Source: Escherichia coli
GTDB lineage: Bacteria > Pseudomonadota > Gammaproteobacteria > Enterobacterales > Enterobacteriaceae
Assembly (NCBI RefSeq): GCF_001677475.2
Contig: NZ_CP015229.1
Reading direction: 5' to 3' (one strand)
Length of the DNA: 64,000 nucleotides
Shown here: piece by piece, positions 60,901 to 63,900 of the stretch
Layout of the letters: each line of letters begins with the position of its first letter
How positions within the stretch are numbered: the stretch's first letter is position 1
Position numbers: made by a program

Positions 60901-63900
60901 TCATCTGGATCATGGCTGACGGTTTCCGCCTGATGTGGGTTTTTAATATCCAGATTGAAGTTACGCGCAATCACGTCATCAATGCTGACTTTCCACGCCT
61001 GCTCATTCTCGACGCGGCTGGCAAAACCATCGGCCTCGTTACCCCACCAGTCGATCTCCGCCTGAAACTCTTCAAACTTCATCGGCTTGGTTTTGCTGTA
61101 ATTTTTCACGCCCGCCGGATACGGATGCTCATAGAACCAAATCTCTTTGGTTGGCTGACCTTTGGTAAAGAACAACAGGTTGGTTTTAATGCCGGTATAG
61201 GGGTTAAACACACCATTTGGTAAACGCACGATGGTATGCAGGTTGCACTCTTCGGTAAGTAGCTTTTTGATTTTGGTTTTAACACCTTCGCCAAATAGCG
61301 TGCCATCCGGCAATACCACCGCCGCGCGACCGTTTTTCGCCAGTACTTCCACAATCAGTTGCAGGAACAGATCCGCCGTTTCGCGGGTTTGCATCTCTGC
61401 CGGAAAGTTCTTCTCAATACCGTCTTCTTCCGTGCCACCAAACGGCGGGTTGGTAACAATGACATCCAGTTGTTCATCCCAGGAGGAAAGCGGTTTGTTC
61501 AGGGTGTTGTCGTGACGAATTTGTACCGGTACTTCAATGCCGTGCAGCAGCATATTGGTGGTCGCCAGCAGGTGCGGAAGCTGTTTTTTCTCAACACCGT
61601 GGATCTGTTGTTGCAGCGTCTGATGATCGGCGACGCTCTTCACGTATTTGTTCTTTACATGATCGAACGCGCAGGCAAGAAAACCGCCCGTACCGCAGGC
61701 CGGGTCCATAATGGATTCGCCGAGTTTCGGATCAACGCGATCCACCATAAAGCGAGTGACGGCGCGTGGAGTATAGAATTCGCCCGCATTGCCCGCAGAT
61801 TGCAGATCTTTAAGGATCTGTTCGTAAATATCACCAAACAGATGGCGTTCGCTGGCGCTGGTAAAGTCAATTTCGTTCAGCTTGTTGATCACCTGACGCA
61901 GTAGCGTACCGTTTTTCATATAGTTATAGGCATCGCTGAACGCCTGCTTCACCACGTAGCCGCGTGGGTTTTTATCGATAGGCGCAGTGAGGTTTTTCAA
62001 CGCCGGGAACAGATCATCATTAACGAATTCCAGCAGGGAATCACCGGTAATGCCCTGAGCGTTTGCGGCCCAACTGCGCCATAAATAACGCTGTGGGATC
62101 GGATATTGATAGTTATCCTGCTCCAGTTCCAGCGCCTCTTCCTGGGCATCGAAGATTTTCAAAAACAGCAGCCAGGAGAGCTGACCGAGACGCTGCGCAT
62201 CGCCGTCCACACCGGCATCTTTGCGCATAATATCTTGTAATGATTTGATTACTGAACTGATAGACATGTTGTATTCCATGAAAAACAAGGCCTTCTGCAA
62301 CATGATGGTTGCAGAAGGCGCAAAAGAGAGTTGTTAAGCAGAGCGGGGCGGTAATTGGTAGATTTCGTTTTCCAGCTCGCTGAGCGCCTGATTATACCCG
62401 TTACGGTCGCCAAATCCGGTTTTAATAATCTCCGGTAAGGTGCCCATGCTGTCGAATGGTTTAAGTTTCAGCACCTGAATACTTTCGATCTCCTGTACGC
62501 CCGCATCGGCGTATTTATCCAGCAGATTATCGAGCACGGCTTGCGCTGCTTCAGAGTATTTTGTGAAGTAGTTCCGCTTGCGCACGTTCTCGGCGCGCTC
62601 TTTGCGGGTTAACGGCGGCTGACCATACACTACGTGGCAAAGCATGTCGAACGGGTCGAGATCTTTACCGACTTCTTCTGCCAGCACTTCCCAGATGATC
62701 CCCTGTTGCTCCAGCTCGTGAATGATCGCTTCTTTGCGATCGGCGTCCTGCCACTTGCGGGTAAAGTCATCCAGCGAGGCATATTCTTTGAGCAGTGTTT
62801 TACGGGTGTAATCTTTAAAGGATTCGGTAACCAGTTTTCCGTCGGCATCGTAATACTGAACGCGCTGTGCAATAACGCCCACCGCCACGCCATTGACGTG
62901 AAACTTGCGGATTTTCTTCTCGTCTTCTTCCGGAAGTGGGCCAACATCATCGGTATCGGTAACCTGGTATGGCGGCGCAGGCGGTTCATCAACGCCTGTC
63001 ACCTGCTCTTCGTCATGTTCGCTGATTTCTTCGAGTTTCTCTTCAAAATCAGATTCTGGATCGGCGATATCCTCTGGTGTGGTATCCATGACTTTTTCGG
63101 GAATGCCATCGAAACGCTCATCGGCAAACAGTTCGGTGGCTTTTTTAAAGTCGAGGATGGTAAACCAGAGTTTGCCGTAACGTTCGTCGATGCGTGTACC
63201 ACGACCGATAATCTGCTTGAATTTGGTCATCGACTGGATGTTCTGATCCAGTACTACCAGTTTGCAGGTTTTAGCATCCACACCGGTGGTCATCAGCTCT
63301 GAAGTGGTCGCGATAACCGGGTACGGTTTTTTCGGGTTGATGAAGTTATCCAACTGAGCTTTGCCAATTTCATCATCACCGGTAATTTTCATGACGTATT
63401 TGTCGTTCTTTTTCACCTGCTCCGGGTTGAGATTAACCAGGGCGCGGCGCATACGTTCTGCATGATCGATGTCGTTACAGAAGACGATGGTTTTATCCAT
63501 CGGGTTGGTGCGCTTGAGGTAGTCGGTAATGGTTCTGGCAACCAGTTCTGTGCGTTCGTCGATTACCATTGTGCGATCGAAATCTTTCTGGTTATAGATA
63601 CGATCGTCGATCACTTCGCCGTTTAAGTCAGTTTGCCCTTTGGTTGGGCGCCAGCCTTGCAGATCAACATCAATATCAACACGGACAACTTTATAAGGGG
63701 CGAGGAAGCCGTCTTCGATCCCTTCTTTTAGCGAGTAGACGTAAACCGGATCGCCGAAGTAATCCGTGCTGGAGACTTCATGGGTCTCTTTTGGCGTGGC
63801 GGTTAAGCCAATTTGGGTGGCGGAGCTGAAATAATCAAGGATCTCTCGCCAGGCGCTGTCTTCGGATGCGCTGCCGCGATGGCATTCGTCGATCACGATC

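What the first reader, a model, noticed from the sequence alone, without database searches (positions are those of the whole stretch)
62282..62318. Terminator-like hairpin inside the annotated N-terminus of hsdM
A perfect 11-bp stem (ccttctgcaac/gttgcagaagg) followed by a U-run on the minus strand sits 16 bp after the hsdR stop and overlaps the first codons of the longest hsdM ORF. This argues that hsdM starts at a downstream ATG (62279 or 62267) and that hsdR and hsdM are partly uncoupled transcriptionally. That arrangement could control the restriction-to-modification ratio.
Basis: seen in the sequence. Interest (0 to 1): 0.3.

Follow-up and report, generated by a model that had tools for sequence, protein, structure and literature searches.

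The report
Terminator hairpin between hsdR and hsdM
A strong hairpin followed by a run of Ts sits in the short gap between the restriction (hsdR) and methylase (hsdM) genes of an E. coli type IB restriction system; it looks like an ordinary, evolutionarily conserved transcription terminator, and it shows that hsdM starts at the downstream ATG that RefSeq already uses.

Summary
On the minus strand a perfect 12-bp stem (62319-62308 / 62301-62290, 6-nt loop) is followed by CTTGTTTTTC. It starts 14 nt after the hsdR stop (62334-62336) and ends 22 nt before ATG 62267.

The locus is a type IB (EcoAI/EcoEI-family) hsdR-hsdM-hsdS cluster found in about 950 complete E. coli genomes.

hsdM starts at 62267, not 62303:
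- RefSeq annotates the 489-aa form.
- 77 of 85 related loci have an ATG at the homologous position, encoding MSISS...
- Several enterobacterial relatives have in-frame stop codons between the hairpin and that ATG.

So the hairpin is intergenic.

All 11 enterobacterial type IB loci examined carry a strong hairpin plus T-run at the same place. They use three different stem sequences, with compensatory and G·U changes. This indicates selection for an RNA terminator-like structure on the hsd sense strand.

A terminator downstream of hsdR, with separate hsdR and hsdMS transcription units, is the textbook picture for EcoKI. This is therefore a new member of a known kind.

What remains open:
- No promoter fits in the 22 nt after the terminator, and no conserved promoter was found in the hsdR 3' end. 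How hsdMS is transcribed (read-through or an internal promoter) is unresolved.
- No transcript-end data were found.

Interest is low.

The parts
62334..64000 (-). 3' part of hsdR (type IB, EcoAI/FtnUII family). The gene runs off the window end. Stop codon TAA at 62336-62334.
   Evidence: Pfam EcoEI_R_C, ResIII, Helicase_C. RefSeq annotation of 99-100% identical loci.
62268..62333 (-). 66-nt hsdR-hsdM intergenic spacer.
   Evidence: RefSeq gene ends mapped to the window. Enterobacterial relatives have gaps of 65-100 nt.
62308..62319 (-). 5' arm of the hairpin (GCCTTCTGCAAC).
62302..62307 (-). Loop (CATCAT). It varies between E. coli strains and genera. It contains A and T of the non-conserved ATG 62303.
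62290..62301 (-). 3' arm of the hairpin (GTTGCAGAAGGC).
   Evidence: Covariation.
62280..62289 (-). U-rich tail CTTGTTTTTC, interrupted proximally (C-U-U-G). The expected transcript 3' ends would fall here.
   Evidence: A T-run follows the hairpin in 11 of 11 enterobacterial loci.
62274..62277 (-). GGAA, a weak Shine-Dalgarno-like motif 6 nt before ATG 62267. The core GnAA (GGAA or GAAA) is kept in 10 of 11 enterobacterial loci; Erwinia has GTAA.
   Evidence: Alignment. Duplex energy -3.3 kcal/mol.
60798..62267 (-). hsdM, 489 aa, with its true start at ATG 62267-62265 (MSISSVIKSLQDIMRK...).
   Evidence: Pfam HsdM_N and N6_Mtase. RefSeq start. Conserved start in 77 of 85 loci.
62277..62303 (-). 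Non-conserved in-frame upstream ATGs (62303-62301 and 62279-62277). They give the 501-aa and 493-aa forms seen in some public annotations.
   Evidence: ATG 62303 has no SD (+1.4 kcal/mol).
59038..60798 (-). hsdS, 586 aa. Its start overlaps the hsdM stop by 1 nt (TGATG) behind AAGGAGG.
   Evidence: Pfam Methylase_S. Junction sequence.
58989..59016 (.). Bidirectional terminator-like hairpin 21 nt after the hsdS stop, marking the end of the hsd cluster.
62622..62650 (-). Best sigma-70-like site upstream of hsdM (TCGACA-17-TATGGT), inside hsdR and 355 nt before the ATG. It is only a candidate for an internal hsdMS promoter.
   Evidence: 99.986th percentile of the window. It is strong in the E. coli/Citrobacter clade and lost in Erwinia, Rahnella woolbedingensis and Cedecea.
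62391..62396 (-). Perfect TATAAT hexamer inside hsdR (codons G-Y-N) with no usable -35. Candidate only.
   Evidence: Present only in the E. coli/Citrobacter/Pseudocitrobacter clade.

Best explanation
The hairpin plus U-tract is a factor-independent (intrinsic) transcription terminator at the end of hsdR. It lies wholly in the 66-nt spacer before hsdM, which starts at ATG 62267.

RNA polymerase that has transcribed hsdR makes the 12-bp GC-rich hairpin and pauses on the U-rich tail. A fraction of transcripts end about 62283-62280.

Two conserved features predict incomplete termination. The proximal U-tract is interrupted (CUUG; UCC/UCA in the second enterobacterial hairpin type). The stem begins only 14-17 nt after the hsdR stop codon in 10 of the 11 enterobacterial loci (35 nt in Cedecea), a range where a terminating ribosome can repress an intrinsic terminator. 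The site would then act as a leaky boundary between hsdR and hsdMS.

Shown here: the structure, its position, its conservation with covariation, and the hsdM start. Inferred: that it terminates in vivo, and that it is leaky.
For: Structure: perfect 12-bp stem with 7 G-C pairs, -20 to -24 kcal/mol, z = -4.2, followed by 7 T in 9 nt on the hsd sense strand only.

Conservation:
- All 11 enterobacterial type IB loci have a hairpin of -17.5 to -23 kcal/mol plus 6-8 T in the next 9 nt. These are E. coli, two Citrobacter, Pseudocitrobacter, Lelliottia, Pectobacterium, Erwinia, Dickeya, two Rahnella and Cedecea.
- The stem starts 14-17 nt after the stop (35 in Cedecea) and ends 22-29 nt before the ATG.
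- The background rate of such sites in hsdR coding sequence is 0.043 per 100 nt.
- Three unrelated stem sequences occupy the same place.

Covariation:
- 6 of 11 consensus pairs have double compensatory changes.
- 91.7% of cells are paired, against 30-53% when partners are slid.
- The covariation score is 0.405, against 0.186 in shuffles, reached by 0 of 500 shuffles.
- U·G and G·U pairs occur, which pair only in the sense-strand RNA.

Variation within E. coli falls in the loop and flank, not the stem.

The hairpin is intergenic because the hsdM start at 62267 is conserved.

Ribosome proximity effect: termination efficiency of tR2 was near zero at short stop-to-terminator distances, 0.12-0.8 at 17-18 bp, and about 0.9 beyond 30 bp (PMC4824070).
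Against: - No transcript 3'-end data for this locus were found. The E. coli K-12 Term-seq supplements have no hsd entries (and K-12 lacks this system), and the EHEC Term-seq paper has no supplements held.
- The U-tract is not canonical, because the first four bases after the stem include C and G.
- No sigma-70-like promoter that passes the scan criteria lies between the terminator and hsdM. The best in-gap match, TTGCAG-16-TGGAAT, scores at only the 99.58th percentile and would give a leaderless mRNA. No promoter in the hsdR 3' end is conserved across the clade. An efficient terminator here would therefore starve hsdMS, which argues against strong termination.
- Outside Enterobacterales most type IB gaps (36 of 44 that are at least 30 nt long) have no terminator-like site, and 10 gaps are under 30 nt. 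The element is lineage-specific, not a family requirement.
- The 11 loci form few independent lineages, so covariation counts overstate the number of events.
Confidence: 0.65

Rival explanations
1. The hairpin is mainly a leader (5'-UTR) element of the hsdMS mRNA rather than the hsdR terminator. hsdMS would be transcribed from a promoter inside the 3' end of hsdR. The hairpin and U-tract would then attenuate that transcript, or protect its 5' or processed end, and so tune methylase and specificity subunit levels.
For: - The distance from stem to hsdM ATG is as constrained (22-29 nt) as the distance from the stop.
- The gap has no room for a promoter after the hairpin, so any hsdMS-specific transcript must contain it.
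- In EcoKI (type IA) an analogous hairpin (GCGGCTCGA...TTGGGCCGC, then TGCTTAATTT) also ends exactly 22 nt before the hsdM ATG, with the same GGAA-N6-ATG. It is structurally maintained between K-12, UTI89 and B. It lies downstream of the best promoter-like site of that gap.
- Candidate internal promoters exist in the window at 62650-62622 and at TATAAT 62396-62391.
Against: - The internal promoter candidates are not conserved across the 11 loci that all keep the hairpin.
- A stabilising hairpin needs no T-run, yet the T-run is kept in all 11 loci.
- The hairpin does not sequester the SD or start codon.
- No TSS data are available.
- This reading is not exclusive of terminator function. An attenuator is a terminator.
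Confidence: 0.2
2. hsdM really starts at ATG 62303, or also at 62279. The inverted repeat is then coding sequence or a translational control structure that masks the start codon.
For: - The 501-aa and 493-aa forms are widely annotated, each on at least 1000 contigs.
- ATG 62303 sits in the hairpin loop, which could in principle modulate initiation.
- ATG 62279 is kept in the E. coli, Citrobacter and Pseudocitrobacter loci and in Rahnella inusitata, and its SD-like pairing (-3.4 kcal/mol) is no worse than that of 62267.
Against: - No SD precedes 62303 (+1.4 kcal/mol).
- In-frame stops lie downstream of the hairpin in 7 of the 10 relatives, so the extension through the hairpin cannot be translated there.
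- The extension is absent from 77 of 85 loci, which all start MSISS....
- 62279 is GTG, ACG or TGG in other genera.
- PGAP chooses 62267.
Confidence: 0.05
3. The inverted repeat acts at the DNA level, as an operator for a dimeric regulator, a cruciform or a recombination site, or it is a chance palindrome.
For: A perfect 12-bp inverted repeat with a 6-bp spacer has operator-like geometry.
Against: - Stem sequences differ completely between genera while complementarity is kept, including G·U pairs that are mismatches in DNA and on the antisense RNA.
- The T-run is conserved on one strand only.
- No regulator gene is in the cluster.
- Chance expectation is about 0.07 such hairpins per window.
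Confidence: 0.03

Closest known systems
EcoKI (type IA) hsd transcription organisation: Pres-hsdR-terminator, Pmod-hsdM-hsdS
   Same: - Same gene order and the same chromosomal region, with yjiA on one side and symE on the other.
- A terminator-like hairpin lies in the hsdR-hsdM gap.
- hsdM and hsdS overlap by 1 nt.
- After subtracting a 127-nt dispersed repeat, the K-12 gap leaves 72 nt with a hairpin and T-rich tail ending 22 nt before the ATG, and GGAA 6 nt before the ATG, as here.
- The literature describes two promoters and an apparent terminator after hsdR (PMC12707154).
   Different: - The EcoKI gap is about 200 nt and has room for, and a plausible match to, an intergenic promoter (TTGATG-19-TATATT).
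- The type IB gap is 66 nt and holds no promoter passing the scan criteria.
- The proteins belong to a different family: HsdM is 489 aa against 529 aa, HsdS is long, and HsdR has the EcoEI_R_C tail.
Canonical Rho-independent terminators of E. coli (GC-rich hairpin plus U-tract)
   Same: GC-rich 12-bp stem, 6-nt loop, U-rich tail. It lies just downstream of a stop codon, is orientation-specific, and its structure is conserved by covariation.
   Different: - The proximal U-tract is interrupted (CUUG).
- It is unusually close to the stop codon (14 nt) and to the next start codon (22 nt).
- It is therefore probably sub-maximal. In the tR2 study, terminators 17-18 bp from a stop codon ranged from 0.12 to 0.8 efficiency (PMC4824070).
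Intra-operon partial terminators and attenuators that set differential expression of adjacent genes
   Same: A terminator between two co-oriented, functionally linked genes with no intervening promoter. It would set a fixed ratio of upstream to downstream transcript.
   Different: No evidence here of a regulatory input such as an antiterminator, riboswitch or leader peptide. Rfam finds nothing.

Membership tests
Intrinsic (Rho-independent) terminator | Stable GC-rich stem-loop in the nascent RNA | tested here: met
   12-bp perfect stem with 7 G-C pairs. The hairpin alone is -20.3 kcal/mol. The context folds at -24.6 kcal/mol, z = -4.2.
Intrinsic (Rho-independent) terminator | U-tract immediately 3' of the stem on the transcribed strand | tested here: met
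   The tail is CUUGUUUUUC, with 7 U in 9 nt, but it is interrupted at positions 1 and 4. The T-run is kept in 11 of 11 enterobacterial loci. There is no T-run on the opposite strand.
Intrinsic (Rho-independent) terminator | Location downstream of a coding region, not inside one | tested here: met
   It lies 14 nt after the hsdR stop. The hsdM start is at 62267 by RefSeq annotation and by conservation.
Intrinsic (Rho-independent) terminator | Transcript 3' ends map to the U-tract, and mutating the stem relieves termination | not testable with these tools
   No Term-seq or RNA-seq data for this locus could be retrieved.
Type IB restriction-modification system (EcoAI/EcoEI family) | HsdR, HsdM and HsdS with family-specific sequence: EcoEI-type HsdR C-terminal domain, short HsdM, long HsdS | tested here: met
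   Pfam EcoEI_R_C at 3.9e-37. HsdM is 489 aa and HsdS is 586 aa. RefSeq names the HsdR 'EcoAI/FtnUII family'. PMC3510504 states that type IB has smaller HsdM and longer HsdS.
Type IB restriction-modification system (EcoAI/EcoEI family) | Subunit complementation, antibody cross-reaction and DNA hybridisation within the family | not testable with these tools
   These are experimental criteria (PMC3510504).
EcoKI-type two-promoter organisation (Pres and Pmod) | Terminator after hsdR | tested here: met
   Met at sequence level only.
EcoKI-type two-promoter organisation (Pres and Pmod) | A promoter for hsdMS between hsdR and hsdM | tested here: not met
   No sigma-70-like site passing the scan criteria lies in the 66-nt gap. 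The best in-gap PWM match is at the 99.58th percentile and would place the start at the ATG. Candidates exist only inside hsdR and are not conserved. Promoters of other types and weak promoters are not excluded.

The most novel reading that the evidence does not exclude
The hairpin and U-tract may be more than the end of hsdR. They could be a shared, ancient leader module of the chromosomal (yjiA-linked) type I systems, with this layout: stop codon, about 15 nt, hairpin, interrupted U-tract, GGAA-N6-ATG.

The module is present at the same spacing in both type IA (EcoKI/EcoBI) and type IB loci, although the proteins belong to different families.

In type IB, where no intergenic promoter fits, hsdMS expression would depend on read-through of this terminator. 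Read-through would be set by the ribosome finishing hsdR 14-17 nt upstream. That would couple methylase and specificity-subunit synthesis to active translation of hsdR and fix the R:M:S ratio co-transcriptionally.
Probability: 0.12. Interest if true: 0.5.

Novelty: new member of a known kind. Interest (0 to 1): 0.2.

Why it matters
Practical value:
- It fixes the hsdM start at 62267. Three different N-termini (501, 493 and 489 aa) circulate in public annotation, and the two longer forms should be retired.
- It marks a likely transcript boundary in a defence locus carried by roughly one in six complete E. coli genomes, including O157:H7, O104:H4, CFT073 and 536.

Biological value is modest. Little is known about transcription of type I systems (PMC12707154 says so explicitly). 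The type IB layout, with a terminator but no room for an intergenic promoter, poses a concrete question that is easy to test: how are the methylase and specificity genes expressed relative to the nuclease gene?

If the terminator proves to be a ribosome-sensitive valve, it would be a simple mechanism for setting subunit ratios. If it is just a leaky terminator, it is ordinary.

Tried and rejected
- Rfam scan of 61900-62700 at E <= 1 gave only a chance snoRNA hit. No known RNA family matches.
- I looked for the arm sequence elsewhere in the window and for the region elsewhere in E. coli genomes. It is single-copy, so it is not a REP/ERIC-type repeat.
- I searched for transcript-end and TSS evidence:
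  - Locus-tag searches (ECs5307/8, Z5948/9, c5422) returned nothing relevant.
  - The EHEC Term-seq paper PMC7547250 has no supplements held.
  - The E. coli K-12 3'-end atlas PMC7815308 has no hsd entries.
  - The type IB paper on EcoA0ORF42P says nothing on promoters or terminators of the native locus.
  - Murray's 2000 review is not held.
- Promoter hunting used the consensus scan, my own PWM scan with window-wide percentiles, and a column-wise scan of the 11-locus alignment. No site is conserved across the clade.
- The perfect TATAAT at 62396-62391 and the idea of a ~100-nt 3'-end-derived small RNA were dropped. The hexamer is limited to the E. coli/Citrobacter clade, while the hairpin is not.
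- A leaderless hsdM mRNA from TTGCAG-16-TGGAAT within the hairpin and tail was rejected. The score is weak, and the conserved GGAA SD argues for a leadered mRNA.
- My first terminator scan of the 74 related gaps allowed only perfect stems and missed the bulged hairpins of Lelliottia-Rahnella. It was redone with RNAfold-based detection.
- Type ID loci were not examined, for lack of a quick way to find them.
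Full report
**What is at the coordinates**

On the minus strand the sequence reads: hsdR ...TCT GCT TAA (stop 62336-62334), then caactctcttttgc, then GCCTTCTGCAAC-catcat-GTTGCAGAAGGC, then cttgtttttc, then ATG gaa tac aac ATG tct atc agt.

The inverted repeat is a perfect 12-bp stem (62319-62308 with 62301-62290) around a 6-nt loop. The 86-nt context folds at -24.6 kcal/mol (z = -4.2; none of 200 shuffles as stable). It is the best terminator-like site between 58.8 and 64 kb.

Only seven distinct perfect hairpins of at least 11 bp exist in the 64-kb window, against 0.07 expected. The T-run is on the hsd sense strand only. The element is single-copy in the window and in each genome that carries it. 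Rfam has nothing for it.

**What the locus is**

The three minus-strand ORFs are as follows:
- hsdR, with Pfam EcoEI_R_C, ResIII and Helicase_C.
- hsdM, with HsdM_N and N6_Mtase.
- A long hsdS of 586 aa, with Methylase_S.

RefSeq names the HsdR of 99-100% identical loci 'EcoAI/FtnUII family', that is type IB. The region is present once in about 950 of 5,426 complete E. coli genomes, including O157:H7, O104:H4, CFT073, 536 and CE10. It lies between yjiA and symE.

The short HsdM and long HsdS are the type IB hallmark (PMC3510504). hsdM and hsdS overlap by one base (TGATG) behind AAGGAGG. A bidirectional terminator-like hairpin (58989-59016) closes the cluster 21 nt after hsdS.

**Where hsdM starts**

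The longest ORF starts at ATG 62303, in the hairpin loop. RefSeq/PGAP starts the gene at ATG 62267 (489 aa) in every record inspected.

I fetched 80 related loci from one-genome-per-species contigs and four from plasmids. In 77 of 85, counting the window, an ATG sits at the homologous position and the protein begins M(S/T/A)(I/V)S...IKSIQDIMR.

In Citrobacter youngae, Citrobacter sp. Cu233, Lelliottia, Pectobacterium, Erwinia and both Rahnella loci, an in-frame stop lies 2-5 codons upstream of that ATG, downstream of the hairpin. The reading frame through the hairpin is therefore not conserved.

ATG 62303 has no Shine-Dalgarno pairing (+1.4 kcal/mol). ATG 62279 is replaced by GTG, ACG or TGG in other genera. 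What is conserved there is the purine-rich GnAA (GGAA or GAAA) that sits 6 nt before ATG 62267.

All three protein versions (501, 493 and 489 aa) exist in public databases, each on at least 1000 contigs. The start is 62267, and the hairpin is intergenic.

**Is the hairpin under selection?**

I scanned the hsdR-hsdM gap of 66 related loci for a hairpin (at most -8 kcal/mol) abutting a T-rich tail.

All 11 enterobacterial loci have one, at -17.5 to -23.1 kcal/mol with 6-8 T in the next 9 nt. The stem begins 14-17 nt after the hsdR stop (35 in Cedecea) and ends 22-29 nt before the hsdM ATG. The same detector finds 0.043 sites per 100 nt in hsdR coding sequence.

Three unrelated stem sequences occupy the site:
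- GCCTTCTGC... in Escherichia, Citrobacter and Pseudocitrobacter.
- TGCCACYRG... in Lelliottia, Pectobacterium, Erwinia, Dickeya and Rahnella.
- A longer GGGGAGAGGG-type stem in Cedecea.

On an alignment of 11 sequences, RNAalifold recovers the stem, and 6 of 11 pairs show double compensatory changes. 91.7% of cells are paired, against 30-53% when the 3' partners are slid by 1-3 columns. The covariation score is 0.405, against 0.186 in shuffles (0 of 500 reach it).

U·G and G·U pairs occur, which are pairs only in the sense-strand RNA. Among six E. coli loci compared with the window, all differences near the hairpin fall in the loop or the flank.

Two caveats apply. The 11 loci represent few independent lineages, so these counts overstate the number of events. 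The element is also lineage-specific: outside Enterobacterales 36 of 44 gaps of at least 30 nt have no such site, and 10 gaps are shorter than 30 nt or overlap, which implies simple co-transcription.

**Mechanism**

The conserved combination of stable hairpin, one-sided T-run and post-stop position is that of an intrinsic terminator for transcripts that have crossed hsdR. I put about 0.65 on it causing measurable termination in vivo.

Two conserved features predict that it is leaky:
- The proximal U-tract is interrupted in 10 of the 11 loci (CUUG or CUUA in the first hairpin type; UCC or UCA in the second). From the established model of intrinsic termination, this weakens release. This point is inference.
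- The stem starts only 14-17 nt after the stop codon in 10 of the 11 loci. In the tR2 study, a terminator was almost fully repressed when very close to a translated stop codon. Its efficiency ranged from 0.12 to 0.8 at 17-18 bp and reached its maximum (about 0.9) only beyond 30 bp (PMC4824070).

**The unresolved point: how hsdMS is transcribed**

The canonical statement is that hsdR has its own promoter and hsdM-hsdS share one upstream of hsdM (PMC3510504; PMC12255300). [quoted passage not shown]

Here only 22 nt separate the stem from the ATG, and the consensus scan finds no promoter in the gap. My PWM scan gives these candidates:
- TCGACA-17-TATGGT at 62650-62622, inside hsdR, at the 99.986th percentile of the window. 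This is the best candidate.
- A perfect TATAAT at 62396-62391 without a -35.
- A weak TTGCAG-16-TGGAAT overlapping the 3' arm, which would give a leaderless mRNA.

None is conserved across the 11 loci that all keep the hairpin. So either hsdMS depends on read-through of this terminator, or a clade-specific internal promoter feeds transcripts that also contain the hairpin. In both cases the hairpin is part of the hsdMS transcript, which keeps alive the rival that it is also, or mainly, a leader element.

**Comparison with EcoKI**

The K-12 gap (206 nt from stop to ATG) consists of two parts.

The first is a 127-nt dispersed repeat. It has a median of 13 places per E. coli genome. By my recollection it is an ERIC/IRU element; this was not tested.

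The second is a 72-nt remainder. It contains a hairpin (GCGGCTCGA-TGAAT-TTGGGCCGC) with tail TGCTTAATTT that ends 22 nt before the hsdM ATG, and GGAA 6 nt before the ATG. That is the same spacing as in the window.

Between K-12, UTI89 and B the loop of that hairpin is the most variable stretch of the gap, and a U·G pair becomes C-G. The 72-nt IA and IB segments align better than shuffles (z = 3.7, 0 of 500). However, shared features (hairpin, T-run, SD, ATG) could produce this without homology.

The best promoter-like site of the K-12 gap (TTGATG-19-TATATT) straddles the repeat's end, upstream of the hairpin. This is a lead, not a result.

**Verdict**

The finding is a correct observation, and the first inference about the start codon is correct. 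The element is best filed as an intrinsic terminator of hsdR in type IB loci, a new member of a known kind of arrangement. The claims about transcriptional uncoupling and ratio control are plausible but untested. The absence of a downstream promoter makes 'leaky terminator' more likely than 'clean boundary'. Interest is low (0.2). The most novel reading, a ribosome-sensitive read-through valve shared by type IA and IB, gets about 0.12.

Noticed in passing
window 60798-62303 (-): Public annotation of this hsdM is inconsistent. Exact 501-aa (ATG 62303), 493-aa (ATG 62279) and 489-aa (ATG 62267) forms are all in the protein collection, each on at least 1000 contigs. The Sakai protein is NP_313334.2; I guess, but did not check, that the '.2' reflects a revised start.
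   Followed up: partly
window 60796-60800 (-): The hsdM stop and hsdS start overlap by one base (cTGATGa), preceded by a strong AAGGAGG. This is the translational-coupling junction known from EcoKI (PMC3510504).
   Followed up: partly
window 58989-59016: Perfect 12-bp palindromic hairpin AATAAAGCGGCT-AAAT-AGCCGCTTTATT, flanked by A- and T-tracts. It lies 21 nt after the hsdS stop and upstream of symE (ORF 58476-58874, Pfam SymE_toxin). It is probably a bidirectional terminator closing the hsd cluster.
   Followed up: partly
window 56336-58429 (+): Intact 697-aa protein with GmrSD_N, GmrSD_C and DUF5655 domains, a type IV restriction enzyme candidate. In the closest RefSeq genome inspected (2012C-4502) this position holds a 387-aa GmrSD-domain protein next to a DUF262 pseudogene.
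   Followed up: no
window 5261-5288, 11095-11126, 21871-21900, 26082-26106, 37753-37780: The other perfect hairpins of at least 11 bp in the window, against 0.07 expected by chance. The one at 11095-11126 is AT-rich with a 12-bp or longer stem.
   Followed up: no
L093 (E. coli K-12 NC_000913.3 4582700-4583500), locus positions 419-545: The EcoKI hsdR-hsdM gap contains a 127-nt dispersed repeat starting 5 nt after the hsdR stop. It has a median of 13 places per E. coli genome and is ERIC/IRU-like by recollection. Without it the type IA gap would be about as short as the type IB gap. The best promoter-like site of that gap straddles the repeat's right end.
   Followed up: partly
L093 372-394; L094, L095 (UTI89, E. 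coli B): Type IA loci have their own hairpin and T-rich tail ending 22 nt before the hsdM ATG. The loop is hypervariable and a U·G pair becomes C-G between strains. GGAA-N6-ATG is the same as in type IB.
   Followed up: partly
L016-L086 (non-enterobacterial type IB loci): hsdR-hsdM gaps range from a 4-nt overlap to 632 nt. Eleven loci had no long ORF within 700 nt upstream of hsdM, so hsdR is not always the upstream neighbour.
   Followed up: no
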